This document shows, in pieces, positions 4,187-60,240 of a DNA stretch of 64,000 nucleotides. A program made the translations under genes and the position numbers. The first letter of the stretch is position 1, and each line of letters opens with the position of its first letter. Under the pieces are notes generated by a model. It saw nothing but the letters and a program-made list of their open reading frames with translations. It was not told the DNA's origin and searched no databases. Source of the DNA: Clostridiales bacterium UBA1206 (GTDB lineage: Bacteria; Bacillota; Clostridia; Oscillospirales; CAG-382); NCBI GenBank assembly GCA_002310055.1, contig DBXS01000031.1, forward strand, positions 93,572 to 157,571, in the 5' to 3' direction.

Positions 4187-4489
4187 ATGGGCGAAGAAAT
4201 AAAAACTTTGATGTATAAAGGCAAGCCGCTGGTAAGGCAGGGGCAGTTCCTTTATTACGGTTTCCCCGATGACAAGGCGATTCTGTTTATGAACATACTC
4301 GAGACCAGGAAATCGGGAGACCTGGATATAGCCACGCGCGTGCTCGTGCAGATACAATCTACCGACGACGAGCTGAGTTTTGCCGACAAGGTGCTGAAAC
4401 AGTGCGAAAAAGGCAGCTTTTACGAAGCGTTCGAGATAGGCACCATCTGGCTTTGGCGCGAGCTGAACAAAAACGAACAGGGCAAATAA
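4187..4489 (+). CDS. hypothetical small protein (100 aa)
   Basis: The ATG at 4187 lies 17 nt after the ireB stop and the coding-like composition continues. The upstream part of the tracked ORF (3995-4186) overlaps ireB out of frame. I recognise no family. Confidence 0.5.
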   Translation: MGEEIKTLMYKGKPLVRQGQFLYYGFPDDKAILFMNILETRKSGDLDIATRVLVQIQSTDDELSFADKVLKQCEKGSFYEAFEIGTIWLWRELNKNEQGK

Positions 4490-4502
4490 CGGGGTAAAAG
4501 TT

Positions 4503-5330
4503 ATGAAACTGACTTATCTCGGCACCGCCGCCGCCGAAGGGTGGCCCGCGGTATACTGCAACTGCGACCACTGCAAGCGCGCAAAGGCGGCGGGCGGAAG
4601 GAATATCCGCACGCGCAGCCAGGCGCTTATCAACGACGACCTGCTTATCGACTACCCTGCCGATACATACGCCCACGCGCTGTTCAACAAGCTCGATCTT
4701 TCGGCGGTGCGGTATCTTATTTTCACCCACGCGCATATGGATCACTGCGAGCCGCTCGACCTGGCGTTCCGCGCCGAAAGCTGCTACGCCCACGGTATGA
4801 CCTGCGCGGACCTCGATATCTACGGCAACGAGGCGTGCAAAAAGCGGCTGGAAGACGCGCTTGCGGTTTACCACGACGAAAGGGCGAAATACAACTACAC
4901 CGTGGTAAAGCCGTTTGAACCCGTGGAGTTCGGCAATTACAAGGTGACTCCGCTGAAGGCGTACCATTCGAGCCCCAACGATTTGGTTTACATAATCCAA
5001 TCCGAAGGCAAGACGGTGCTCTACCTGCACGACACCGGGACAAAGATCGAAGATTCCATTGAATACCTTGTATCCAACAAGATAAAGGCCGACCTTGTGA
5101 GCTACGACTGCACCTTTGTGGCGCTCCCCAGCGGAGGCGGACACATGGGGCTCGACACCAACGTCGTGATGCGCGATCTTTTCCTTGAAAAAGGGATAAT
5201 CGATACAAACACAATAAACGTCATCAACCACTTTTCGCATAACGGCAAGCTCATCTACGACGAGCTCGTCCCCGTCGCGCGCGAGCTGGGTTTTGAGACT
5301 TCCTACGACGGGATGGTAATTGAGCTTTGA
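4503..5330 (+). CDS. MBL-fold metallo-hydrolase
   Basis: 275 aa with the 'FTHAHMDHC' HxHxDH zinc motif and N-terminus 'MKLTYLGTAAAEGWP'. It resembles PhnP/beta-lactamase-fold phosphodiesterases. Confidence 0.75.
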   Translation: MKLTYLGTAAAEGWPAVYCNCDHCKRAKAAGGRNIRTRSQALINDDLLIDYPADTYAHALFNKLDLSAVRYLIFTHAHMDHCEPLDLAFRAESCYAHGMTCADLDIYGNEACKKRLEDALAVYHDERAKYNYTVVKPFEPVEFGNYKVTPLKAYHSSPNDLVYIIQSEGKTVLYLHDTGTKIEDSIEYLVSNKIKADLVSYDCTFVALPSGGGHMGLDTNVVMRDLFLEKGIIDTNTINVINHFSHNGKLIYDELVPVARELGFETSYDGMVIEL

Positions 5331-38481: not shown

Positions 38482-38543
38482 GAAAAAATTTGTTTGTATT
38501 TTCATTTTTATGTACTTTCGGGTGCGTTCGCGGCGTAAAAAAT

Positions 38544-38578
38544 GCGCGATTATGCAAAAATGCTGTGCATAATCGCGC
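38544..38578 (-). terminator. intrinsic terminator after the 38593-39438 gene
   Basis: A 13-bp stem gcgcgattatgca / tgcataatcgcgc, followed on the - strand by attttttac. Confidence 0.75.
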
Positions 38579-38592
38579 GTTTATACATTTTT

Positions 38593-39438
38593 TCAATTTT
38601 CTTTGAACTGCGCGAAGAACTCGCGGGACTCTTCTTCGGTCATAACTCTATCGAAAAGTTCGGAAGTGCATTTATAGGCAACGCCGTTCCTGTGGCCGTT
38701 CGTACCCGACTGGATCGAGCAGTAGTATTCGCCGCCACCGAGGCATTCGAAGCCGTAGGGGGTGGAAAACTTATACTTTGCCTCTACCCTGTCGAGCGTG
38801 GGGGCGATACGGTAGAGCGTCTCTTCCGCCTGATACGGATATTTCTGACCGTAGGTCGTGATCCAGAAACAGCCGGTGTCGGCTTCGTAATCGAGGTTCT
38901 GTATGCCGAACACGGTGTTTTTGTTGGGGATATAATGCACTTTTTCGATTTTGTTATCGGGTCCGATCTGAAGTATCATCTCGTGCGCGTACTGTTCGCC
39001 GCTGTTGGTGGCGACCGCCACGAACATACGCTCTTCGCCCGTATCCGGCGCTTTGCCGAACGCGATGCCGTCTATTCCCTGGAAACCGCCGACGTCGTTT
39101 TTCTTCATATCCATACATTCGTCGAGCTTGATCTTTTCTATAAGATGAAGATCGTGATCGTCGTAAACGAAGATATAAAACCCCGACCAGTCGTTCCAGA
39201 AAGTCCACGGCGAAGGGTTCGCCATAAAGCTGACGTAGACTTTGCCGTCGTGCCAGTCCATACCGCCCAGGTGGCCGGAATCGTCGCAGTGTATCTGGCA
39301 GATCATCGTGCCGTTCATATTGGTCTTGACCACGCTGTCGGTGAACGACCAGAACATATACTTGTGCTCTGCGTCGGACGTGAATCCCTGCATATGCTGG
39401 TTCTGGTTGCATACTTCGATAAATTCCATTTTTCGCAC
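38593..39438 (-). CDS. hypothetical cytoplasmic protein (Trp/Gly/Asp-rich, possibly beta-propeller-like)
   Basis: 281 aa with coding-like composition, no signal peptide and no motif I can name. Confidence 0.55.
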   Translation of the reverse strand: MRKMEFIEVCNQNQHMQGFTSDAEHKYMFWSFTDSVVKTNMNGTMICQIHCDDSGHLGGMDWHDGKVYVSFMANPSPWTFWNDWSGFYIFVYDDHDLHLIEKIKLDECMDMKKNDVGGFQGIDGIAFGKAPDTGEERMFVAVATNSGEQYAHEMILQIGPDNKIEKVHYIPNKNTVFGIQNLDYEADTGCFWITTYGQKYPYQAEETLYRIAPTLDRVEAKYKFSTPYGFECLGGGEYYCSIQSGTNGHRNGVAYKCTSELFDRVMTEEESREFFAQFKEN

Positions 39439-39459
39439 CTCTTTATAATAATATTGTAA

Positions 39460-51332: not shown

Positions 51333-52502
51333 ATGGAAAAATTCAACGTAGGTATTATCGGTCTCGGCTGCCGCGGCAGCTGGGCGGTGAAGGATATACT
51401 CACCGAGCGCGAAGACGTAAACGTGACGTTCGTCTGCGACGAATACGAAGACCGCACCGAGGAAAGCAAAGCGGTCGTGGAAAAGAAGCAGGGGCACACT
51501 CCGCACACTTCGCTCGACTGGCACGACGTCGTCAACTCGCCCGACGTGGACGTGGTGGTGAACTGCACCGCGTGGGAAGGGCACGTGCCCATAAGCACCG
51601 CCGCGATGGAGGCGGGCAAGCCCGTGGCTATGGAAGTAGGCGGCGCGTATCAGCTTGACGAATGCTACCGGCTGGTGGATACATATAAAAAAACAGGCAT
51701 CCATTGCATGATGCTTGAAAACTGCTGTTTCAACCGCGAAGAGCTTATGGTCCTCAATATGGTGCAGCAGGGGCTCTTTGGCAAAATAGTGGCGTGCAGC
51801 GGCGGGTATCAGCACGACTTGCGCGAAGAGATAACTTTCGGCCGCGAAAACCGTCATTACAGACTGCGCAACTACAAGGCGCGCAATACCGATAACTACC
51901 CGACCCACGAACTGGGCCCCATAGCAAAAGTCCTTGACCTGGGCCACGGCAACAGGATGAAATATCTCGTTTCGATGGCGACGGGCAGCTGGGGACTGAA
52001 CGACTACGCCCGGCGCAACGAAAAAGCGGATCCCGAACTGAGGGATTACAAATTCCATCAGGGCGACATAGTAAAGACCCTGATAATGTGCGAAGGCGGC
52101 GAGACCGTAACGCTCACGCTCGACACCACCCTGCCCCGCAGCTATTCGCGCGGGTTCACGGTGCGCGGCACCCGCGGCGCCTATTTCGAAGACGGCGACG
52201 GCGTGTTCCTCGACGGCGTGAACAACGAATGGGACAAGAGCTTTTACAACAACAAGCAGCAGTTCTTTGAAAAATACGACCATCCGCTGTGGCAAAAAGG
52301 CGGCGCGCTGGATTTCCGCGGCGGACACGGCGGCATGGACTGGCTGGTGTACGACGAATTCTTCCGCTACGTGCGCACCGGGAACACCCCCTGGATCGAC
52401 ACCTACGACACCGCTTCGTGGATGAGCATTACCCCGCTCGCCGCAAAGTCTATAGAAAACGGCTCCGCACCCGTCGAGATCCCCGATATGCGGGAAATAT
52501 GA
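51333..52502 (+). CDS. Gfo/Idh/MocA-family NAD-dependent oxidoreductase (GH109-like)
   Basis: 389 aa with Rossmann fold 'NVGIIGLGCRGSW' and 'MLENCCF'. The length and blocks resemble GH109 alpha-N-acetylgalactosaminidase-type proteins, but there is no signal peptide. Confidence 0.75.
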   Translation: MEKFNVGIIGLGCRGSWAVKDILTEREDVNVTFVCDEYEDRTEESKAVVEKKQGHTPHTSLDWHDVVNSPDVDVVVNCTAWEGHVPISTAAMEAGKPVAMEVGGAYQLDECYRLVDTYKKTGIHCMMLENCCFNREELMVLNMVQQGLFGKIVACSGGYQHDLREEITFGRENRHYRLRNYKARNTDNYPTHELGPIAKVLDLGHGNRMKYLVSMATGSWGLNDYARRNEKADPELRDYKFHQGDIVKTLIMCEGGETVTLTLDTTLPRSYSRGFTVRGTRGAYFEDGDGVFLDGVNNEWDKSFYNNKQQFFEKYDHPLWQKGGALDFRGGHGGMDWLVYDEFFRYVRTGNTPWIDTYDTASWMSITPLAAKSIENGSAPVEIPDMREI

Positions 52503-52519
52503 ATACAGTCAAAAACAGG

Positions 52520-52548
52520 AACGCCGCGCAGCAAAACTGCGCGGCGTA
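52520..52548 (+). repeat. direct repeat copy 1 (29 bp, identical to 54713-54741)
   Basis: aacgccgcgcagcaaaactgcgcggcgta. The flanks are also similar (aaaacagN...N tttt). Confidence 0.95.
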
Positions 52549-52553
52549 GTTTT
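52521..52553 (+). terminator. intrinsic terminator after the GH109-like gene
   Basis: A perfect 11-bp stem acgccgcgcag / ctgcgcggcgt with a 5-nt loop, followed by agtttt. Confidence 0.8.
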
Positions 52554-52642
52554 GAAAAAGTATAATAAAAATATACTTCCCGTAAACGCCGAATTGTGGA
52601 ACGTTGCTAAGAAAATACTGCAAATTTGGTCAATTATGTCTA

Positions 52643-52672
52643 TTGACATTCTGTTACTATCAAGTGTATAAT
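52643..52672 (+). promoter_or_regulatory. sigma-70 promoter (extended -10) for the AT-rich island genes
   Basis: TTGACA (52643-52648), an 18-nt spacer, then TGtTATAAT (52664-52672), 54 nt upstream of the ATG at 52727. Confidence 0.6.
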
Positions 52673-52726
52673 TTATAGGGAGGAAAGTATTTAACAGAAT
52701 GGCTATGTGAACTGAAAGGAGTAAAT

Positions 52727-53854
52727 ATGAAAAAAGTATTATCTTTTACGATTTGCGTTTTGTTGCTTGTTCAAATCTCTTTCGTTTGTATTCCTTTAGC
52801 AGTAGCAGCTTTGCCCAGCACACTTTCTCAGAATAAAGTTTACTTAATTAAGAACGCAGCAACAGATATGTATCTTGGCCAGAGCGGTTTGGATTTAACG
52901 CCCTGTTTTGCTTCCACAAACACTTTAACGTATGGCCCGAATCAACTTTTCCGGCTGACTGAGTCAGGAGGCTCAGGCTTGATTATGCCTATGACCACCT
53001 GTTCAAACAGTTTGACTTCAAATCTGGCGCTCAGTTATTACAACAACGGGCAAAATAATCTTGGCTATTTTGTATATTTTACCACCGCGTCTGTTTCAAC
53101 TTTTTGGACAATTACAAAACTTAACAACGGGAATTATACGATACGTTCCACATACTATGGTAATAGCAGCAATTATTTGTCCATCCAATCGTCATCAGGA
53201 AACGTCGTGGTTTCTTCCTACAGCGGCGCATACTCCGAATGGATAATTACTGAAATCATCAACGATATGTACTTTAATAGTGGTTATACTTATTTGTCAC
53301 AACCAAGTAATGTATGTGCAAAAAGTACAGCTGATGTTGAATCTTTGTTTACAACAAACGTGCTTTTAGGCACACAAGACTGGAATGGTTATTCCGAAAA
53401 TGTCAACGTCACTTATCTTAACCATACCCAATCTATTCCTTCCGGAAAAAATGATCTAATAACCATTTCATCGGATTACAATAACCAACTACCAGAAGAT
53501 GCTTTGGGATGTGCATGCCCTGTAATTGCTTTTTCTGTCCAATATAATCCGAGTGAAATATCATTAAACAGTAATTGGCAGTTTGTGTTTATTTATTTGA
53601 ATTATGACGAAATATCTAGCCATAATTATTCCGACACTGCCCTAAGAGCGATTGTTGCTCACGAAACCGGTCATTGTTTAAAACTCAAACATACTGTCGG
53701 CGGCGAAATATACAATGCCAGGTATATCCCTTCAATTATGCAATTAAGTATTGATGTTTTTGATGGATATACGTATGTATATGCCTATTACTATTATTCT
53801 GCATATCATCCAACTACATATAATATTCATTCTTTAATCAATAAATGGAATTAA
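52727..53854 (+). CDS. secreted two-domain protein with an N-terminal beta-trefoil/ricin-B-like region and a C-terminal metzincin zinc protease
   Basis: Signal peptide 'MKKVLSFTICVLLLVQISFVCIPLAVAA'. The extended zinc motif 'HETGHCLKLKH' (aa 312-322, nt 53660-53692) is followed by a Met-turn-like 'PSIMQ'. The N-terminal half has three 'hydrophobic-x-W/F' pseudo-repeats ('QLFRL', 'TFWTITK', 'SEWIITE'). The composition is AT-rich. Confidence 0.75.
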   Translation: MKKVLSFTICVLLLVQISFVCIPLAVAALPSTLSQNKVYLIKNAATDMYLGQSGLDLTPCFASTNTLTYGPNQLFRLTESGGSGLIMPMTTCSNSLTSNLALSYYNNGQNNLGYFVYFTTASVSTFWTITKLNNGNYTIRSTYYGNSSNYLSIQSSSGNVVVSSYSGAYSEWIITEIINDMYFNSGYTYLSQPSNVCAKSTADVESLFTTNVLLGTQDWNGYSENVNVTYLNHTQSIPSGKNDLITISSDYNNQLPEDALGCACPVIAFSVQYNPSEISLNSNWQFVFIYLNYDEISSHNYSDTALRAIVAHETGHCLKLKHTVGGEIYNARYIPSIMQLSIDVFDGYTYVYAYYYYSAYHPTTYNIHSLINKWN

Positions 53855-53876
53855 GTATTTAGAAAGGAGTTTGTAT

Positions 53877-54695
53877 ATGAATACCAACAGATTTTTAGCT
53901 ATTATATGTGCGCTTATCACGGTTATGACGCTTTTCTTATCAGCTTGTGAAAAAGCCGATGATCCGTCGCTTGATGACACGGATCCTGTCTTGACTGCCG
54001 CATCGGATAAGCCGATCGTATCTGTATTAGGAAATCAAGACGTTTCAGTTACTCCGATCGTTTCAACGGTCTGCGACGATTTTGAATACCCTTTGGAAAA
54101 CCGCACCGAAAACCAGATCCTGCCTGATTTCGGCAATGTCAAAAACGGGCTTGATATGTGCACGGTGGTCAGTTTTAAGGATGCAGACGATTTGCTGGCA
54201 AGGAGACTGCAGCAAGACGGAGCCATAGTGACCGGCAGAAAAATATCTTGCGTAAGTTACAGCAAATTTGAAAAAACAGTATATTATGAATTTCACGAAG
54301 GCGTAAAAGGAGATATCATAAGATACTACACGATCACCCGCTTTCTGGTCGAAAACGTAGCCGAAGGGCAAGGTATCAAAGCCGGCGATATAATTACGAT
54401 CATAGAAGACTATTCGTTCCTCGACGACGGGAGCGCATATCAAATGGTGCCGCTTTACGCACCGCCGATATACGAAAACGAAGAATATCTTATAATTATC
54501 TCGCCCGACGAACACGAGTATATAAACGTCGAAAACGCCTGGGACGTCAGAGCCGCTATCCTTATCGACGAATTCAGCAGGAACTACGAACAGTATTCGA
54601 TAGAAGAAGCATTGAGATTCGAACAAAAGAGAGGATATTTTGCTAGGTTCGATATCGCCAAAGAGATGATCAAACGTTTTGTAGACGGAAAATAA
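53877..54695 (+). CDS. lipoprotein of unknown function, co-transcribed with the metzincin gene
   Basis: AAAGGAG sits 7 nt before the ATG at 53877. Signal/lipobox 'FLAIICALITVMTLFLSAC'. 272 aa with no recognisable motif. Confidence 0.65.
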   Translation: MNTNRFLAIICALITVMTLFLSACEKADDPSLDDTDPVLTAASDKPIVSVLGNQDVSVTPIVSTVCDDFEYPLENRTENQILPDFGNVKNGLDMCTVVSFKDADDLLARRLQQDGAIVTGRKISCVSYSKFEKTVYYEFHEGVKGDIIRYYTITRFLVENVAEGQGIKAGDIITIIEDYSFLDDGSAYQMVPLYAPPIYENEEYLIIISPDEHEYINVENAWDVRAAILIDEFSRNYEQYSIEEALRFEQKRGYFARFDIAKEMIKRFVDGK

Positions 54696-54712
54696 AACAT
54701 CCCCAAAACAGT

Positions 54713-54741
54713 AACGCCGCGCAGCAAAACTGCGCGGCGTA
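54713..54741 (+). repeat. direct repeat copy 2 (29 bp, identical to 52520-52548)
   Basis: aacgccgcgcagcaaaactgcgcggcgta. Confidence 0.95.
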
Positions 54742-54747
54742 ATTTTT
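54714..54747. terminator. bidirectional intrinsic terminator
   Basis: The same 11-bp stem and 5-nt loop as at 52521. It is followed by aattttt on the + strand and by tactgtttt on the - strand, between convergent genes. Confidence 0.8.
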
Positions 54748-54782: not shown

Positions 54783-55949
54783 TCACTGCCCGTTGAGCTG
54801 ATAGTCGCCGGGGAACAGCACGTAATTGAGCAGCAGCACGGCGTCGGACGACGAGACCCCGCCGTCGCCGTCGAAATCGGCGGGCTGATATATGAGAAAA
54901 TCATCCGAAAAAAGCGTGTGCCTTAGCAGGAATATGGCGTCGTCGGAATCGACCGTGCCGTTGTTATCCATATCGCCGACCGTATATTCGGGACCTGTCT
55001 CGGGCAGAGCGGCGGTGAAAGAACCGAAATAGCTGTAATACCGTCCGCCGGCTATATCGATATACATACGGTAAACGTACGAGACCCCGGGATACAGCTC
55101 GACTCCGATCTGTGAAACGCATTCATACTGCGATATAACGAAAGTATCGACGGAATTAAGGTTCAAAATCTCTTCGTACGAACCGAGCATCACGCCCGAA
55201 GAAGTGTAAAGCTCCACTCCTCCGCGTTCGACGTCTTTTGCCGACGCCCCCCAAAGATCGGTGCGCATCGCCAATATGGCGTCTGTCGGCAAAACGAGCG
55301 ACGAAGCGGGAAGCTCGCTCCAGTCGGCAAGCACGGTGATATCCGGCTCTTCGGGTTCTTCGGGCTCTTCGGGTCCCGAATAACCGGAACCAAGGCCGTA
55401 ACCGACGGATTCGTCGACTTCGACGTTTACGTAATGATACCCTTTTTCAAACGAGCATTTTTTCCAGTCTTTGACCCATTTGCCATTGCTGTTGTAATAG
55501 CCGAACCGCTGAAGCACGCCGTTGTGCATACGGTAATGGGTATCGCTGATATAGACCTGATCCTTGTGTTTTTCGGCGGTAAAAAGCGTGTCTCCGCGGC
55601 GCTCGAGTATGATGATCCAGTGCGGATCGGACATCTTTACGATATCGCCGGTACGGATATCGGCGGCGCGTGAATAACGTTCGCCCTTCCAGCCGTAGGT
55701 GCCGTACATATAGTATTCGAAATCCGAACACAGCGAAGCGCACCCCCAGGCGCTGTACAGTCCGTGCTCGGGCATTTTTCTGTCTCCCCACGGAGTGCCG
55801 GCGTCCCAGCGGTCGTCGCTTAAGAACTGTTCGTACACAGCGCGGTATTCGGCGTACGTGCCGTACGTCGTGGCGGCGGACGCCGAAAACGCCGGTACGA
55901 GCAGCGCGAGCAGGAGGATCACGAAGAGCGTTTTTTTGAAGATCTTCAT
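54783..55949 (-). CDS. secreted papain-like (NlpC/P60- or CHAP-like) amidase/peptidase candidate with a C-terminal dockerin
   Basis: Signal 'MKIFKKTLFVILLLALLVPAFSASA'. Candidate Cys/His pair 'WGCASLCSDF' and 'GDIVKMSDPHWIIIL'. 'PEEPEEPEEPD' linker. Dockerin 'GDMDNNGTVDSDDAIFLLRHTLF...ADFDGDGGVSSSDAVLLLNYVLFPG'. The start is ATG 55949 or 55955. Confidence 0.65.
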   Translation of the reverse strand: MKIFKKTLFVILLLALLVPAFSASAATTYGTYAEYRAVYEQFLSDDRWDAGTPWGDRKMPEHGLYSAWGCASLCSDFEYYMYGTYGWKGERYSRAADIRTGDIVKMSDPHWIIILERRGDTLFTAEKHKDQVYISDTHYRMHNGVLQRFGYYNSNGKWVKDWKKCSFEKGYHYVNVEVDESVGYGLGSGYSGPEEPEEPEEPDITVLADWSELPASSLVLPTDAILAMRTDLWGASAKDVERGGVELYTSSGVMLGSYEEILNLNSVDTFVISQYECVSQIGVELYPGVSYVYRMYIDIAGGRYYSYFGSFTAALPETGPEYTVGDMDNNGTVDSDDAIFLLRHTLFSDDFLIYQPADFDGDGGVSSSDAVLLLNYVLFPGDYQLNGQ

Positions 55950-55974
55950 AAACATATTCCTGTTTTCGTTTTTC

Positions 55975-56922
55975 TCAGCCGAGCAATTCTTCTTTGAGAT
56001 AGGCGCGGGTAAATGCTCTGCCTCTAATATCGTGACATTCGAAGCGGACGTATTTCCAGTCGTAATTGAAATTTATATCGAACACGGCGCTCGTGATATC
56101 GTCGGCAAACGAGCGGACGGGGCGCGAAGCGCGCGATTCGGTGCGCAGTACGACGGCGCTGCACGGCGAGCATTCGAGATACACTTTGCCGTCTTCGTAA
56201 TAAAGCGAGTTTATCACGGGGCCGGTGGAAGCGTACATATCGCCGTTCTTCACCGCTTTGAAGAATTCGCCGTATTCGAGTTTGGGCATACAGATCATAT
56301 CGAAACCGCCGAACGAATCGTTATAAGGCGATTCGAGCGACTTACACGCGTTGTGGTTGTCGTCGGTGGCGGAAGGGCAGGGATACTTGCCGGCTATGAG
56401 GATCTGCTCGTATTCCCTGTCGCCGTAGCCGTTGAACATCTCTTTTTCGCAGCCGGTGTTGAAGACTTCGAACAGGTCGAGCCCTTCGAGCCCGATATAA
56501 TCGGTGCTGGACTGCAGCGACCAGCGCGGATGGTTGTACTGCGAAAGAAAGCCGGCTTCGTGCGCGCGGCGGATCATATCGTTTGCGACGTCGACGTCGT
56601 AGGCGCGCTCGACGGGGATGAATTCGGTGCGCGTCTCGTCCGCCGAAAAGAAGTTGAGATGGTAGGTGCGCGCGTTGAGCCAGCTGCCTTCGAAACGCTC
56701 GGTCATATCGATCTCAAGCGAGGTGATGGGCAGGAAGCGTTCGTCTTTGAGCTCGACGTGCGGCACGAGTTTGTTGTGGTCGCTGAACGCGACTATGGAA
56801 TACCCGTGCGCGAGATAATTTTCCTTATGCTGTTCCACGGTGAAGCGTCCGTCGGAAAACGTGGAATGGCAATGCAGGTTCGCTTTGTACTGGACAGTGT
56901 CGGGAAGCAGATACTTTTTCAT
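55975..56922 (-). CDS. PHP-domain metal-dependent phosphoesterase
   Basis: 315 aa from the ATG at 56922. 'ANLHCHSTFSDG', 'IVAFSDHN' and 'SATDDNHN' are PHP motifs. Confidence 0.75.
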   Translation of the reverse strand: MKKYLLPDTVQYKANLHCHSTFSDGRFTVEQHKENYLAHGYSIVAFSDHNKLVPHVELKDERFLPITSLEIDMTERFEGSWLNARTYHLNFFSADETRTEFIPVERAYDVDVANDMIRRAHEAGFLSQYNHPRWSLQSSTDYIGLEGLDLFEVFNTGCEKEMFNGYGDREYEQILIAGKYPCPSATDDNHNACKSLESPYNDSFGGFDMICMPKLEYGEFFKAVKNGDMYASTGPVINSLYYEDGKVYLECSPCSAVVLRTESRASRPVRSFADDITSAVFDINFNYDWKYVRFECHDIRGRAFTRAYLKEELLG

Positions 56923-57035
56923 TTCCGTTTTTGCCTTTCGGCCGTATTTACGGCGTTTTTTGTAAATTAATAAAAAATTAAACAAATCAACATTATATAT
57001 TATACCTTTTTGGCGGCGTTTGTCAAGAGGGACTC

Positions 57036-57064
57036 TTGACTGAAAGCAAGATTTTGTTTATAAT
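57036..57064 (+). promoter_or_regulatory. sigma-70 promoter for the adenylation-carrier gene
   Basis: TTGACT (57036-57041), a 17-nt spacer, then TATAAT (57059-57064). Confidence 0.6.
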
Positions 57065-57126
57065 ATCAGCATGGCGCGCGGCAATTACCGCCGCCGTGAT
57101 ATTTTACTTTGACAAGGAGACATCCA

Positions 57127-59130
57127 ATGAAACTTACCTGGAAAGAAAAATGCGATATCCTGGCTCAGGATATGTGTATGCGTCATCTTTTCGACACCCT
57201 TTGTCTTATGGATCAGGAATTCGCCGTATGGCTCGAAGACGGCGAAGTAAAGACATATGATTACAAATATCTTAAATCACACGCGCTCGCATGCGCCGAA
57301 AATATAGAAAAGATAGGTCTGGGCGAACCCGGCGGCTGGACCGGGATCGCGGTGGACACCTGCAAGGAATGGCCGATATTCTTCTGGGGGCTGCTCGCCG
57401 CCGGGAGGAACGCGCTGCTTCTGGATCCGTCGCTCGACGACGCCGGAATAGCTCATCTTATGAAACAGGCCGGCGCCAAATCGCTCATCACGCGCCGCAA
57501 ACGCGAACTCGACATACAGCAGATCGCTCCTGAAGAAGCGCTCGGTGCCGCCGACGCACCAAGCGAGGGTTACGAGCCGCACTGGGCGGATCTCATAGCC
57601 GCCTGCACCTCCGGCACCACAAGCACTTCGCGCGTGTACGTTTACAACGGCGAGGCGGTATGCCGTCAGATAATCGGCTTTGCGCAGCACGAAAAATACC
57701 CCTGCCTCACCTCCGAAGAATTCGGACCGCTGAGAGTCGTGGCGTTCCTGCCCTTCAACCATATATTCGGGCTCATCGCCAACCTTATCACCATGCCGTT
57801 CCAGAACCAGTCGCAGATATTCCTTAAAGACCGCGCGCCGCAGACCATACTCGAGACAGCGCGCAAATGCGACGCCAAAGTCATACTCACCGTTCCCCTG
57901 CTAGTCAATTCCATTTCCTCCACCATAAAAAAGCGAGTATCGCAGCAGTCGGCGTTCAAGCGCGGCGCTTTCAAGGTGATGCAGAGCATTTCGCTCACAT
58001 GCCAGCGCATCAACCCGCTTTGGGGGCTGAAGGTAGGCAAAAAGCTTTTCAAATCGGTCAACAAGAACCTGTTCGGCGACCAATTCATGGAATTCGTCGT
58101 GGGCGGCGCGCACACTCCCGAAGAGCATCTGCGCACCGTGAACTCGCTGGGCTACGCCGTGACCGTGGGGTTCGGCATGACCGAGACCGCCATAACTTCC
58201 TACGAAAACAAGATCGATCTCAAGACCCGCCTTTCGGGCAGCGTGGGACTTCCCCTCCCCATAACCGAATACAAGGTCCGCCCCGACGGGAACGATCCCA
58301 GACACGGCGAACTGCTCATCCGCTGCAACGCCATGCACATAGGCCGTATGGATAACGGCGTGATGGTGCCGCCCGTGGTCGACGAGGACGGCTATTTCGC
58401 CACAGGCGACGTGGTCCGCATAGGCGATAAGGGCAGGATGTGGATCGAAGGCCGCATAAAGGACGTCATCATAGGCGAATCCGGCGAAAACGTCTACCCC
58501 GACGAGATAGAAGACACCTTCGCGGGGATGGAGGGCGTGGAACAGCTGGCGGTGTTCTGCACAAAGCCCGGCGAGACCGAGCTTGTGACCGCAATGTTCA
58601 ACGTCGGCGACAAATATAACGACAAAGAATACATAGCTTCGCTCGTCGCGGAGGTCGACAAACGCAACAAGACTCTGCAGCCGCTCAAACGGCTCAAGGC
58701 GGCGTACATCACTTCCAATGCGCTGCCCGTGGTGAGCTCGATCAAGATCAAGCGCGCCGCATTGCGCGAAGGCATAGAAAAAGGCACTTTCGCCTGCAAA
58801 CGCATAGCGCTGGGCGGGGTCGAATACAACGAAGAGATCAAGCCCGCCGGCGAAGCCGCGTCCGTGCCGGAAGGCGAGGATCTGGAAGAACTCAAGGCAA
58901 AGATAAAAACCTGCTTTGCCAAAGAGTTGGAGATCGACGAATCGCTCATAAAAGACGATTCCACGTTTGCCGACGAGCTGGGCGGCGACAGTCTGCACCG
59001 CCTGGGCGCTCTGCTCAGGGTGGAAGAGGAATTCGGCGTGAAGATACCCGAAAACGCATACGAATACTGCACCACCGTGAACGATCTCGCCGCGCTTATC
59101 AAAGACCTGCGCGAAAAGAAAGCGCGGTAA
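57127..59130 (+). CDS. AMP-dependent synthetase/ligase fused to a C-terminal phosphopantetheine carrier domain (A-T didomain)
   Basis: 667 aa from the ATG at 57127, 7 nt after AAGGAGA. ANL cores present are 'CTSGTTSTSRV' (A3), 'GFGMTET' (A5), 'GDVVRIGDKGRMWIEGRIKDVI' (A7/A8) and 'SSIKIKRAAL' (A10 Lys). The carrier motif is 'ELGGDSLHRLGALL' (Ser622, nt 58990). Confidence 0.85.
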   Translation: MKLTWKEKCDILAQDMCMRHLFDTLCLMDQEFAVWLEDGEVKTYDYKYLKSHALACAENIEKIGLGEPGGWTGIAVDTCKEWPIFFWGLLAAGRNALLLDPSLDDAGIAHLMKQAGAKSLITRRKRELDIQQIAPEEALGAADAPSEGYEPHWADLIAACTSGTTSTSRVYVYNGEAVCRQIIGFAQHEKYPCLTSEEFGPLRVVAFLPFNHIFGLIANLITMPFQNQSQIFLKDRAPQTILETARKCDAKVILTVPLLVNSISSTIKKRVSQQSAFKRGAFKVMQSISLTCQRINPLWGLKVGKKLFKSVNKNLFGDQFMEFVVGGAHTPEEHLRTVNSLGYAVTVGFGMTETAITSYENKIDLKTRLSGSVGLPLPITEYKVRPDGNDPRHGELLIRCNAMHIGRMDNGVMVPPVVDEDGYFATGDVVRIGDKGRMWIEGRIKDVIIGESGENVYPDEIEDTFAGMEGVEQLAVFCTKPGETELVTAMFNVGDKYNDKEYIASLVAEVDKRNKTLQPLKRLKAAYITSNALPVVSSIKIKRAALREGIEKGTFACKRIALGGVEYNEEIKPAGEAASVPEGEDLEELKAKIKTCFAKELEIDESLIKDDSTFADELGGDSLHRLGALLRVEEEFGVKIPENAYEYCTTVNDLAALIKDLREKKAR

Positions 59131-59180: not shown

Positions 59181-59966
59181 TCAAGTAAGCGGGTATTCCG
59201 ACGGGAACAGCACGTGGCGGAGCAGATACACCGCGTCGTCGCTGGTGACGAAACCGTCGCCGGTGAAATCGGCGGTGGCGACGGGGTCTTCGATATTATA
59301 AGACGCGGGGAACAGCACGTAGCGGAGCAGATACACCGCGTCGCCGCTGTCCACGTCGCCGTCGCGGTCGACGTCGCCGCGCTGATACTGCGCGCCGGCT
59401 GTGACGGTGACGGTCACGCCCGTGCCGGCGTAAAGCTGGGAAACTTCGATATCGGCGTTAAGGCCGTAACGGACGTCGAACACCTCGAAAACGTGCGGCG
59501 CAGTAAGGTCCGAGCCGGGGGTCTGCAGATACGGTATGGTGACGCTTTGCCCCGAGGCGAACAGGTTGCGCTTTTGCCCCGTGCCTTTGAGGATACTTTC
59601 CACGGTGACCCAGTCAATATAGCAGAATTCCACCACGCCGGGCGTGGTTGAAACGAGGATGAGCTGATCTTCGATAGCCGCCGGGAAGTTCGACGCCACG
59701 GGCGTGACGATATAGCCCGAACCCGTGGGGATGGAGAACGCCGAAGTGTCGTACCTGAGCTTGAAACGGACGCAGGTGATGTAGTTATCTACTTCTACGG
59801 CGGGCACGGATTCCAGCGTGAGTTTGAGACCGCCGCCGGCGCCTTCTACAAATTCAAATCCCACGGAAAGTCCGCTCTGCTCCGCGGCAAAGACCGAACC
59901 GAGCGCCAGCAGCGCCACGATGACGAAAGCCGCAGCGGCGGCAGCCGCCCTTTTGAATAATGCCAT
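59181..59966 (-). CDS. small secreted protein with a cohesin-like N-terminal module and a C-terminal dockerin
   Basis: 261 aa from the ATG at 59966. Signal 'MALFKRAAAAAAAFVIVALLALGSVFA'. 'LKLTLESVPAVEVDNYITCVRFKLRYDTSAFSI' resembles the cohesin 'fkisYD...' strand pattern (tentative). Dockerin 'GDVDRDGDVDSGDAVYLLRYVLFP...ADFTGDGFVTSDDAVYLLRHVLFP'. Confidence 0.6.
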   Translation of the reverse strand: MALFKRAAAAAAAFVIVALLALGSVFAAEQSGLSVGFEFVEGAGGGLKLTLESVPAVEVDNYITCVRFKLRYDTSAFSIPTGSGYIVTPVASNFPAAIEDQLILVSTTPGVVEFCYIDWVTVESILKGTGQKRNLFASGQSVTIPYLQTPGSDLTAPHVFEVFDVRYGLNADIEVSQLYAGTGVTVTVTAGAQYQRGDVDRDGDVDSGDAVYLLRYVLFPASYNIEDPVATADFTGDGFVTSDDAVYLLRHVLFPSEYPLT

Positions 59967-60240
59967 ATCCGTCCCCCTTTCCGCAAAGCAGAGCTTTTCA
60001 AAAATCAGTATAATGATTATACCATCTGCCGCGGGGTTTGTCAATAGACAAGATACCCGTTGAGACATCTTTGAGCGAAAAACCGCTTTTATGCTTGAAA
60101 TATGGCGAAAATCTATATATTTTGCTATTGCTTTTTTTATTGCTTTGCTGTATTATTATGTACAATAGTATAAGAATGCCGTTTTTTACCGGCCGACTGT
60201 CGCCGGCGCCGCTTACGGCGCGCGCGACGTGATTAGTTTT

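What the first reader, a model, noticed from the sequence alone, without database searches (positions are those of the whole stretch)
52512..54747. AT-rich two-gene insertion bracketed by a perfect 29-bp direct repeat that is also a terminator hairpin
The sequence aacgccgcgcagcaaaactgcgcggcgta occurs at 52520-52548 and again at 54713-54741 in the same orientation. The flanks are similar as well (aaaacag-N before, N-tttt after). The 2.16 kb between the copies has a clearly different composition. My spot counts of 60-nt lines give 38% GC (53041-53100) and 43% GC (54301-54360) inside the segment. Outside it they give 53% (52261-52320) and 62% (54841-54900). The segment carries its own consensus promoter and two genes, the lectin-metzincin and a lipoprotein. 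This looks like a horizontally acquired cassette inserted at, or duplicating, the terminator between the GH109-like gene and the dockerin amidase gene. There is no integrase or transposase.
Basis: seen in the sequence. Interest (0 to 1): 0.65.

Follow-up and report, generated by a model that had tools for sequence, protein, structure and literature searches.

The report
Strain-variable protease–lipoprotein islet between duplicated terminators
A 2.2-kb AT-rich two-gene unit (a secreted lectin-metalloprotease and its partner lipoprotein) sits between two copies of one transcription terminator in a rumen Clostridia bacterium. Other strains carry the same site empty with a single terminator, so it is a real but fairly ordinary gain-and-loss islet that carries a previously undescribed gene pair.

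Summary
A perfect 29-mer (42 bp at 40/42) lies at 52520-52548 and 54713-54741, and there are no other copies in the window. It brackets the most AT-rich stretch of the 64 kb (GC 0.39 against 0.55; metzincin GC3 0.34 against 0.685±0.088). The repeat is a strong hairpin with A- and T-tracts, i.e. the bidirectional terminator of the convergent GH109-like and dockerin genes.

The predicted empty site exists. In four cattle-gut metagenomes, contigs join the GH109 stop region directly to 54705 with one hairpin and have no cassette coverage. Other strains carry the full cassette in two deeply diverged alleles, or keep only the lipoprotein gene. The exact 25-nt core matched only this locus in a metagenome-collection scan. 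The cassette and ±10 kb have no inverted ends, transposase, integrase or tRNA.

Divergence is incongruent with the flanks (dS 0.03 against 0.40, and >1 against 0.02), so the cassette is exchanged between lineages by recombination. A sister species has the cassette, with a decayed protease gene, at the same right junction but with a different left hairpin. The order of events therefore stays open.

All four remote protease homologues examined are also followed by a homologous lipoprotein gene. This is a conserved pair analogous to Listeria Mtz-Tim and the Tannerella potempins. I rate it a new member of a known kind, of moderate interest.

The parts
51333..52502 (+). Left flanking gene, a GH109-like NAD-dependent glycosidase. 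It converges on the dockerin gene.
   Evidence: Pfam Glyco_hydro_109_C E 2.9e-55 and GFO_IDH_MocA. It is syntenic in L002, L006, L007 and L012.
52512..52553 (.). Left copy of the 42-bp direct repeat (29-mer core 52520-52548): A-tract, 11-bp G+C-rich stem, 5-nt loop, T-tract.
   Evidence: It folds at -24.7 (+) and -25.6 (-) kcal/mol. The scan calls it a terminator on the - strand only.
52643..52672 (+). The cassette's own sigma-70-type promoter, TTGACA-18-TATAAT.
   Evidence: 12/12 consensus match. Between the alleles the surrounding stretch 52549-53090 differs at only 6 positions in about 540.
52727..53854 (+). Secreted two-domain protein: Sec signal peptide, ricin-type beta-trefoil lectin, and a metzincin-type zinc protease (HETGHCLKLKH, Met-turn PSIMQ).
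   Evidence: Pfam matches are sub-threshold: RicinB_lectin_2, Reprolysin_3, DUF4953. MMP-1 catalytic domain E 0.011. The family profile hits serralysins at E 3e-6. Foldseek returns beta-trefoil lectins plus snapalysin and MMP-13, from a low-confidence model. The family alignment has invariant W..N, HExxHxLKLxH, P..M and KW.
53877..54695 (+). Partner lipoprotein (lipobox LSAC, variable linker, conserved about 200-aa core). It is translationally close to the protease gene (22-nt gap).
   Evidence: No Pfam, NCBIfam, PADLOC or PHROG match. It is homologous to the lipoproteins downstream of remote protease homologues: hhalign probability 92 %, E 6e-7.
53166..54672 (+). Allelic divergence block (protease domain plus lipoprotein gene). 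Alleles A and B differ here by 30-50 % while the flanks are about 99-100 % identical.
   Evidence: dS is 2.6 (protease domain) and 0.95 (lipoprotein core) against 0.022 in GH109.
54705..54746 (.). Right copy of the 42-bp direct repeat (29-mer core 54713-54741). It is the bidirectional terminator for the lipoprotein gene (+) and the dockerin gene (-).
   Evidence: It is called a terminator on both strands. This is the copy retained in the empty sites. L012 has a diverged orthologue of it.
54783..55955 (-). Right flanking gene, a secreted protein with a C-terminal dockerin module.
   Evidence: Pfam Dockerin_1. It is syntenic in all relatives.

Best explanation
The region is a small, recombinase-less accessory islet (about 2.15 kb plus one extra terminator copy). 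It lies in the intergenic terminator between two convergent core genes of an uncultured rumen Clostridia species (MAG RGIG2681-like).

Shown:
- The islet has its own promoter and a two-gene operon for a secreted lectin-metzincin protease and a lipoprotein.
- It is flanked on both sides by the same bidirectional terminator hairpin.
- The population is polymorphic for four states: full cassette of allele A, full cassette of allele B, lipoprotein-only, and an empty site with one terminator.
- The cassette's divergence is decoupled from that of its flanks.

Inferred:
- The cassette is foreign by composition. It spreads between lineages by homologous recombination through the conserved flanks, and within the cassette through the conserved lectin half and the right terminator.
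- The 42-bp direct repeats allow precise loss, which regenerates a functional single terminator.
- The repeats also insulate the cassette transcriptionally from both neighbours.
- The duplication most likely arose in one of two ways. The cassette may have been joined next to the resident terminator while carrying an orthologous terminator at its own 3' end, by one homologous and one illegitimate join. Alternatively a circular copy may have integrated through the terminator, Campbell-fashion. A transposase is unlikely to have been involved.

Function (inferred, about 0.5): the lipoprotein is the cell-surface partner of the protease. It may act as an inhibitor or immunity factor that protects the producer's envelope, or as a substrate or activator as described for Listeria Tim. 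Its retention wherever the protease gene has been lost fits protection against protease secreted by neighbouring cells.
For: Repeat, promoter, hairpin and composition.

Empty sites:
- An X10 contig (2602 nt, depth 11.1) joins 52505 to 54705 with GACAGGCA between.
- An X9 contig joins 52500 to 54705.
- X11 (5626-nt contig) and X12 join 52490 to 54705 with AAAGAAAGATAAAGACGCAAT between.
- Cassette depth is 0 in X9, X11 and X12.
- Both left-flank haplotypes seen at empty sites also occur in the occupied state, in L005/L006 and in L007/L032.

Occupied sites in independent assemblies and runs.

Protease-only loss with the lipoprotein kept:
- L032 and runs X6, X8 and X30.
- L012/L034, which keep a frameshifted relic.
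- L033.

Decoupled divergence:
- Window against L002: GH109 dS 0.40, metzincin dS 0.027.
- Window against L007: GH109 dS 0.022, protease domain dS 2.6 and lipoprotein core dS 0.95, with dN/dS about 0.12.
- The lipoprotein alleles are mosaics.

Not dispersed, and no mobility features:
- The exact core matched only this locus in the metagenome scan.
- No inverted repeats at the cassette ends.
- No tRNA or Rfam match.
- No recombinase among the neighbouring genes.

Conserved gene pair:
- 4 of 4 remote metzincin homologues (L035, L038, L039, L040) are followed within 0-24 nt by a lipoprotein gene.
- That lipoprotein is homologous to the window's.
- In L035 the pair is again AT-rich (0.40/0.42) within a 0.52-0.61 GC contig.

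Precedents: the Listeria mtz-tim pair (PMC8235301) and the Tannerella peptidase/potempin pairs (PMC9890683).
Against: - No clean outgroup fixes the ancestral state. The sister species L012 has the cassette with a different left hairpin, and more distant relatives (L009, L011) are rearranged and lack the dockerin gene as well.
- No excision circle or tandem junction was seen, but only assembled contigs were available, and these drop rare forms.
- The one raw-read run did not contain the organism.
- No donor for the cassette, and no source for allele B, could be identified. Homologues are extremely rare: 11 among 1.8 billion cluster representatives.
- Termination, expression, protease activity and the protease-lipoprotein interaction are all untested.
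- The structure models are poor (pLDDT 53 and 40).
- The A/B co-variation of protease domain and lipoprotein cannot be separated from simple linkage, because both lie in one contiguous block.
Confidence: 0.7

Rival explanations
1. The hairpin is an att-like core site (10-11-bp inverted arms around a 5-7-nt spacer). A recombinase encoded elsewhere in the genome inserts and excises the cassette as a 2193-bp circle. This would make it a recombinase-less mobile cassette comparable to pdif/Xer modules, integron cassettes or CIMEs.
For: - The direct repeats are exactly one copy of the site on each side, and the empty site keeps exactly one copy.
- The geometry resembles tyrosine-recombinase core sites (sequence).
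- Hairpin variants (loop/stem AAGACC) occur in the left copy in L007 and in the right copy in L032, and L032 has the same GCGTT change in both copies. This hints at exchange between the copies.
- Empty and occupied states occur on the same left-flank haplotypes.
Against: - The exact core matched no other locus in the metagenome collection, so no other cassettes or sites use it.
- No recombinase lies within about ±10 kb.
- No circle junction was seen in any run.
- The sister species lacks the left copy.
- The remote gene pair in L035 is flanked by unrelated hairpins.
- A G+C-rich perfect stem with A- and U-tracts between convergent genes is fully explained as a terminator.
Confidence: 0.1
2. 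The two genes are old residents of the lineage with atypical composition, for example through codon bias of a secreted, rapidly evolving gene. The left terminator copy is a local duplication or gene conversion, and every empty site is a secondary deletion. No horizontal acquisition is involved.
For: - The cassette lies at the same right junction in the sister species L012, whose flanks differ by about 20 %.
- L012 has no left copy of the hairpin.
- L012's lipoprotein gene has nearer-native GC (0.50).
- Empty sites occur on haplotypes that are also found occupied.
Against: - GC3 of 0.34 lies about 4 sd below the window's genes.
- Cassette dS is 15-fold lower than flank dS against L002, and 40- to 100-fold higher against L007. 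This requires import or exchange of the cassette independently of its flanks.
- The same gene pair is AT-rich in an unrelated, GC-richer genome, L035.
- The families are absent from nearly all other genomes.
Confidence: 0.15
3. The repeat is a target-site duplication made by a transposable element (transposon, MITE or IS-mobilised unit), or the hairpin is a dispersed REP-like repeat that happens to flank the genes.
For: The cassette is flanked by direct repeats and shows presence/absence polymorphism.
Against: - 42 bp is far longer than known bacterial transposase duplications (general knowledge).
- The cassette ends carry no terminal inverted repeats.
- There is no transposase ORF.
- The window has only two copies, and the metagenome scan found none at other loci.
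Confidence: 0.03

Closest known systems
Genomic islets / Neisseria 'minimal mobile elements' (gene cassettes between conserved flanking genes, exchanged by homologous recombination; PMC1797815 and PMC3787668 were found but not read in full; the description is from my own knowledge)
   Same: It is a small cassette without mobility genes that sits between two conserved core genes. Strains carry alternative alleles, partial forms or an empty site. Divergence inside the cassette is decoupled from the flanks, as expected for exchange through flanking homology.
   Different: Here the cassette is bracketed by a 42-bp duplication of the resident bidirectional terminator, which also allows precise loss. 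The organism is an uncultured rumen Clostridia bacterium whose competence for DNA uptake is unknown.
Listeria monocytogenes Mtz-Tim pair (secreted metzincin plus downstream TIMP-like lipoprotein, associated with phages and mobile elements; PMC8235301)
   Same: A Sec-secreted metzincin gene is followed immediately by a lipoprotein gene (lipobox) without a promoter of its own. The pair behaves as an accessory, mobile unit in Firmicutes.
   Different: No sequence similarity could be shown: tblastn of both proteins against 50,697 phage records and the PHROG profiles gave nothing. The protein here carries an N-terminal ricin-type lectin domain. There is no cI/cro switch or prophage context. The third position of the zinc motif is K rather than G (HETGHCLKLKH).
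Tannerella forsythia KLIKK-peptidase / potempin pairs (PMC9890683)
   Same: A secreted peptidase (including the MMP-like karilysin) is genetically coupled to a surface-anchored lipoprotein that inhibits it and protects the producer's own surface.
   Different: Potempin genes lie upstream of the peptidase gene and encode 98-132-residue proteins in a Gram-negative outer membrane. Here the lipoprotein gene lies downstream, encodes 272 residues, and belongs to a Firmicute. Inhibition is only inferred.
Recombinase-less cassettes bounded by recombination sites: Acinetobacter pdif modules, integron cassettes (attC), streptococcal CIMEs (from my own knowledge)
   Same: A short cassette without a recombinase is bounded by copies of one short palindromic site, and the empty site keeps one copy.
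   Different: The site here is a perfect G+C-rich terminator hairpin found at no other locus. No cognate recombinase, array or circle was found, and the cassette has its own promoter.

Membership tests
Horizontally acquired genomic islet/island | Base composition and codon usage deviate from the host genome. | tested here: met
   GC is 0.386 over 52549-54712 against about 0.55. GC3 is 0.34 and 0.485 against 0.685±0.088.
Horizontally acquired genomic islet/island | Presence/absence polymorphism among close relatives, with an identifiable empty site. | tested here: met
   Bridging contigs with one hairpin in X9, X10, X11 and X12, and zero cassette depth in X9, X11 and X12.
Horizontally acquired genomic islet/island | Phylogenetic incongruence between the element and its flanks. 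| tested here: met
   dS is 0.027 (cassette) against 0.40 (GH109) versus L002. dS is 0.95-2.6 against 0.022 versus L007.
Horizontally acquired genomic islet/island | Carries or adjoins an integrase or transposase, or sits at a tRNA gene. | tested here: not met
   The cassette has only two ORFs. The neighbours are ordinary genes. The 64-kb window has no tRNA.
Transposon / IS / MITE | Terminal inverted repeats, a short (2-15 bp) target duplication, and multiple copies. | tested here: not met
   No inverted repeat at the cassette ends. The duplication is 42 bp. There is a single locus.
REP-like dispersed intergenic hairpin | Many copies at unrelated intergenic sites of the genome. | tested here: not met
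   The window has 2 copies even with 3 mismatches allowed. The exact 25-nt core matched only this locus in the JGI metagenome contigs. A complete genome of the species could not be scanned.
Integron gene cassette | A promoterless ORF with an imperfect attC palindrome, in an array next to intI/attI. | tested here: not met
   The cassette has its own 12/12 promoter. The hairpin is a perfect 11-bp stem. There is no integrase nearby.
Xer/dif-type (pdif, IMEX) module | A 28-bp site with XerC and XerD arms around a 6-bp centre, recognised by the host Xer recombinases. | not testable with these tools
   Only the geometry (10-11-bp arms, 5-7-nt spacer) can be read. The species' dif site and its Xer proteins are not available.
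Intrinsic (Rho-independent) bidirectional terminator | A G+C-rich stem-loop followed by a U-tract on both transcribed strands, between convergent genes. | tested here: met
   An 11-12-bp stem with 9 G-C pairs, -23 to -25.6 kcal/mol. T-runs on both strands for the right copy and for the empty-site copy. The left copy has only 4 T on the + strand. Actual termination was not measured.
Metzincin zinc endopeptidases | HExxHxxGxxH/D zinc motif plus a conserved Met-turn. | tested here: met
   HETGHCLKLKH has all three His and the Glu, with K in place of G. The Met-turn is P-S-I-M. Both are invariant across the family. PDB profile hits to serralysins are at E 3e-6 and to MMPs at about 0.01. Pfam matches are below the curated cut-offs.
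Listeria Mtz-Tim family | Sequence or structural homology of both partners to Mtz and Tim (TIMP-like fold). | tested here: inconclusive
   The gene order and the signal peptide types match. No sequence match in phage records or PHROGs. The lipoprotein model is too poor for a fold comparison (pLDDT 40).
Conserved metzincin-lipoprotein gene pair (defined here) | The protease homologue is immediately followed by a homologous lipoprotein gene in unrelated genomes. | tested here: met
   4 of 4 contexts examined (L035, L038, L039, L040) have lipoboxes IFAC, SFGC, FTAC and LCGC. hhalign probability is 92 %, E 6e-7.

The most novel reading that the evidence does not exclude
The terminator hairpin doubles as a recombination site. 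A recombinase encoded elsewhere, or a hairpin-processing enzyme, inserts and excises this recombinase-less cassette precisely at a bidirectional terminator. Intrinsic terminators between convergent genes would then serve as 'safe-harbour' attachment sites for promoter-bearing mini-cassettes. The cargo would be an inter-strain weapon, a lectin-targeted surface protease with a lipoprotein immunity factor. That would explain the deep allelic dimorphism and the lipoprotein genes kept after the protease gene is lost.
Probability: 0.08. Interest if true: 0.75.

Novelty: new member of a known kind. Interest (0 to 1): 0.45.

Why it matters
The locus gives a cleanly documented example, taken from uncultured rumen bacteria, of how a tiny accessory operon is gained, swapped and lost without any mobility gene. 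The landing place is a bidirectional terminator, and the terminator is duplicated so that both neighbours and the cargo stay insulated.

The cargo is more useful than the repeat. It points to an unannotated, rare but recurrent gene pair in Firmicutes: an MMP/serralysin-like metzincin and a cognate lipoprotein, with no Pfam family for either. The pair is AT-rich and accessory in at least two unrelated genomes, shows deep allelic dimorphism, and often keeps the lipoprotein after the protease is lost. It is therefore a testable candidate for a protease-inhibitor or protease-immunity system acting between strains in the rumen, parallel to Listeria Mtz-Tim and the Tannerella potempins.

Tried and rejected
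- **Dispersed repeat:** rejected.
- **Transposon or target-site duplication:** rejected, because there are no inverted ends and no transposase, and the duplication is 42 bp.
- **tRNA-linked island or known RNA element:** none found.
- **Assembly artefact:** rejected. Independent assemblies agree, and the cassette is absent from runs whose contigs bridge the site.
- **Outgroup with a clean ancestral site:** not obtained. Genomes with 67-70 % GH109 identity are rearranged and have unrelated terminators.
- **Excision circle or tandem junction:** none seen in 27 contig-based runs. The only raw-read run held no reads of the organism.
- **Expression evidence:** no RNA run holds the cassette.
- **Named families for the two proteins:** NCBIfam, PADLOC and PHROGs gave nothing, and Pfam matches were only sub-threshold.
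- **Link to Listeria phage mtz-tim by tblastn:** no match.
- **Structure of the lipoprotein:** the model is unusable (pLDDT 40). The protease model is weak (pLDDT 53), so the Foldseek matches to lectins, snapalysin and MMPs are only supportive.
- **Wider family search with a domain profile:** added one fragment only.
- **Retrieving an empty-site contig as a locus through the L007 GH109 protein:** The junction sequence therefore rests on the read laying tables.
- **Co-evolution of protease and lipoprotein alleles:** not claimed, because both lie in one linked block.
Full report
**1.

The 29-mer AACGCCGCGCAGCAAAACTGCGCGGCGTA occurs at 52520-52548 and 54713-54741 on the + strand. Nowhere else in the 64 kb does it occur, even with three mismatches, and shuffles give none. 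With its flanks it is a 42-bp direct repeat with two mismatches, at 52512-52553 and 54705-54746.

The 2.16 kb in between is the deepest GC trough of the window: 0.36 for 53001-54000 against 0.49-0.61 elsewhere. At the gene level, GC3 is 0.34 for the first gene and 0.485 for the second, against 0.685±0.088 for 40 long ORFs of the window.

A 12/12 consensus promoter lies at 52643-52672. The repeat core is an 11-bp stem with 9 G-C pairs and a 5-nt loop, preceded by an A-run and followed by a T-run. It folds at -23 to -25.6 kcal/mol on either strand. It lies between the convergent GH109-like gene (51333-52502, +) and the dockerin gene (54783-55955, -), so it reads as their shared bidirectional terminator. 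The left copy keeps only four T on the + strand, so it may be the leakier terminator for GH109.

**2. The genes**

ORF 52727-53854 has a Sec signal peptide, a ricin-type beta-trefoil region and a C-terminal domain with HETGHCLKLKH and a P-S-I-M Met-turn.
- Pfam matches are sub-threshold.
- MMP-1 is hit at E 0.011.
- A profile of the domain hits serralysins at E 3e-6, and also myroilysin and MMPs.
- A low-confidence model (pLDDT 53, core 70-87) matches beta-trefoil lectins and snapalysin/MMP catalytic domains.

The protein is a metzincin of a small, unnamed family. HMMER against 1.8 billion cluster representatives finds only 11 proteins. They share DWNGISSNVN...HExGHxLKLxH...P.IM...KWG.

ORF 53877-54695 is a lipoprotein (lipobox LSAC) with a variable linker and a conserved core. 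It has no match in Pfam, NCBIfam, PADLOC or PHROGs. Its model is unusable.

**3. Relatives: the same site in several states**

The organism is an uncultured rumen Clostridia species. L007, from goat-omasum MAG RGIG2681, has 99 % GH109 identity. Independent assemblies carry the two genes at the same place with both hairpins: L001-L007 and L030/L031.

Contigs of public cattle, sheep and other gut metagenomes laid on the locus show four states.
- **(a) Full cassette, allele A:** X1, X2, X13, X24, X25, X26, X28, X35.
- **(b) Full cassette, allele B:** X3-X5, L005-L007.
- **(c) Protease gene deleted, lipoprotein gene kept:**
  - L032 and runs X6, X8 and X30, with joints 52614→53843 and 52615→53729.
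  - L033, where the lipoprotein gene is joined at its ribosome-binding site to an unrelated gene.
- **(d) Empty site:**
  - An X10 contig (2602 nt, depth 11.1) joins 52505 to 54705 with GACAGGCA between.
  - X9 joins 52500 to 54705.
  - X11 (5626-nt contig) and X12 join 52490 to 54705 with AAAGAAAGATAAAGACGCAAT between.
  - Cassette depth is zero in X9, X11 and X12, and X17 is probably the same.

Empty sites thus keep one hairpin, flanked on the left by the GH109-side sequence and on the right by the dockerin-side sequence. Assembler collapse of the repeat does not explain it, because the conserved part of the cassette is absent from those runs. The two left-flank haplotypes seen at empty sites are the same ones seen at occupied sites: L005/L006, and L007/L032.

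**4. Not a dispersed or self-mobile element**

The exact 25-nt core matched only two contigs in the JGI metagenome collection, both at this locus. The cassette ends carry no inverted repeats. There is no third ORF, no tRNA and no Rfam match. The neighbours from about 10 kb upstream to 7 kb downstream are ordinary genes.

**5. The cassette evolves independently of its flanks**

- Against L002, the flanks are 78-93 % identical (GH109 dS 0.40), but the cassette is 98-100 % identical (metzincin dS 0.027). This indicates recent sharing of allele A between lineages.
- Against L007, the flanks, the left hairpin, the promoter and the lectin half are about 99-100 % identical (GH109 dS 0.022).
- From 53166 to 54672, however, identity to L007 drops to 50-70 %. 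dS is 2.6 for the protease domain and 0.95 for the lipoprotein core.
- Identity to L007 returns to 100 % about 30 bp before the right hairpin.
- dN/dS is about 0.12 in both genes, so both alleles are under purifying selection.
- The lipoprotein alleles are mosaics of A and B segments.

These patterns require recombinational exchange. Crossovers fall in the flanks, in the conserved lectin half and at the right terminator.

**6. Age and order of events are unresolved**

The sister species (L012 = RUG11813, and L034) has flanks about 80 % identical and GH109 93 % identical at the protein level. It carries the lipoprotein gene (65-69 % aa, GC 0.50) at the same right junction, followed by a diverged orthologue of the hairpin (GCGCCGCGCAGTCATTGACTGTGCGGCGC). 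It also keeps a frameshifted relic of the protease gene, consisting of the lectin tail and the last 36 codons.

On the left, L012 has an unrelated hairpin and promoter. Either the terminator duplication is younger than the cassette, or L012's left end was replaced when its protease gene decayed. More distant relatives (L008-L011) are rearranged and uninformative. Hairpin variants appear in the left copy in L007 and in the right copy in L032, and L032 shares one change in both copies. This suggests exchange between the copies.

**7. Most likely mechanism**

*Shown:* the islet is polymorphic, it is bounded by a duplicated terminator, an empty site exists, and the cassette's history is decoupled from that of its flanks.

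*Inferred:*
- The cassette spreads by homologous recombination through its conserved surroundings.
- The 42-bp repeats permit precise loss, which restores a working single terminator.
- The duplication arose in one of two ways. The cassette may have been joined beside the resident terminator while carrying an orthologous terminator behind its lipoprotein gene (the L012-type arrangement), by one homologous and one illegitimate join. Alternatively a circular copy may have integrated through the terminator.

A trans-acting site-specific recombinase is not excluded (about 0.1). A transposase-made duplication is very unlikely.

**8. The cargo is a conserved pair**

All four remote protease homologues whose contigs could be fetched are followed within 0-24 nt by a lipoprotein gene: L035, L038, L039 and L040, with lipoboxes IFAC, SFGC, FTAC and LCGC. 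These lipoproteins are homologous to the window's, at hhalign probability 92 %, E 6e-7, with a shared GD(I/T)(I/W) strand and a C-terminal EKYG motif. In L035 the pair is again AT-rich (0.40/0.42) inside a 0.52-0.61 GC contig and has its own promoter, but it is flanked by unrelated hairpins.

The closest described systems are two.
- **Listeria Mtz-Tim:** a secreted metzincin plus a downstream TIMP-like lipoprotein, linked to mobile elements. There the protease cleaves the lipoprotein and the pair alters the cell wall (PMC8235301).
- **Tannerella KLIKK-peptidase/potempin pairs:** the linked lipoprotein inhibits the peptidase and protects the producer's surface (PMC9890683).

No sequence link to the Listeria pair could be shown, so this is an analogy, not membership. 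The protease gene has been lost in at least three structurally distinct ways (the L012/L034 relic, the L032-type deletion, and the L033 fusion). The lipoprotein gene stays intact in all of them, and the reverse was never seen. This fits a protective or immunity role against protease made by neighbouring strains, but it remains an inference.

**9. Verdict**

In kind it is a genomic islet or minimal mobile cassette, which is a known category. The specific points of interest are three: the duplicated bidirectional terminator as its boundary, the population-level documentation of four states, and an unannotated metzincin-lipoprotein pair. Interest is moderate.

Noticed in passing
window 54783-55955 (-): The dockerin-bearing gene is itself highly variable between strains (78-100 % nt identity in 100-bp windows). 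It contains a 9-bp tandem repeat (55342-55374, a PEEPEEPE linker) with length variants, and a 94-bp replaced patch (55073-55168) in several runs. Pfam finds only the dockerin module, so 'amidase' is unconfirmed.
   Followed up: partly
window 52317-52349; L023:1-10628: Many unrelated metagenome contigs match only this about 30-nt stretch of the GH109-like gene, and assemblies break there. It is a motif shared by many GH109 paralogues. One relative, L023, has five GH109-like genes in tandem.
   Followed up: no
L012:9171-9598 (also L034:283-710): In the sister species the left end of the cassette is replaced by about 290 bp carrying a different terminator hairpin (AGCTTCGCCG...CGGCGAAGCT) and a TTGCAA-17-TATAAT promoter. 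A frameshifted relic of the metzincin gene follows, and the lipoprotein gene stays intact.
   Followed up: yes
L033:1-300: The lipoprotein gene (83 % aa identity, a mosaic of alleles A and B) is joined at its ribosome-binding site to the 3' end of an unrelated gene, without GH109 or a left hairpin. This is either a rearrangement or a chimeric contig.
   Followed up: partly
L035:3700-5430: In an unrelated organism, a single-domain homologue of the metzincin and a homologous lipoprotein again form an AT-rich (0.33-0.44) two-gene unit with its own promoter, inside a 0.52-0.61 GC contig between a transporter gene and an HTH regulator gene.
   Followed up: partly
window 56985-57109: An AT-rich intergenic region has back-to-back consensus sigma-70 promoters (12/12 on the - strand at 57026-56999, 11/12 on the + strand at 57036-57064) for the divergent PHP and AMP-binding genes.
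   Followed up: no
window 55975-59130 compared with L009 and L011: The PHP/AMP-binding gene block is inverted relative to more distant relatives. Those relatives also lack both dockerin genes (54783-55955 and 59181-60068) that flank the block here.
   Followed up: partly
window 38542-39456 and 4362-5240: Two further ORFs have unusually low GC3 (0.49 and 0.52 against a mean of 0.685). They may be other foreign genes.
   Followed up: no
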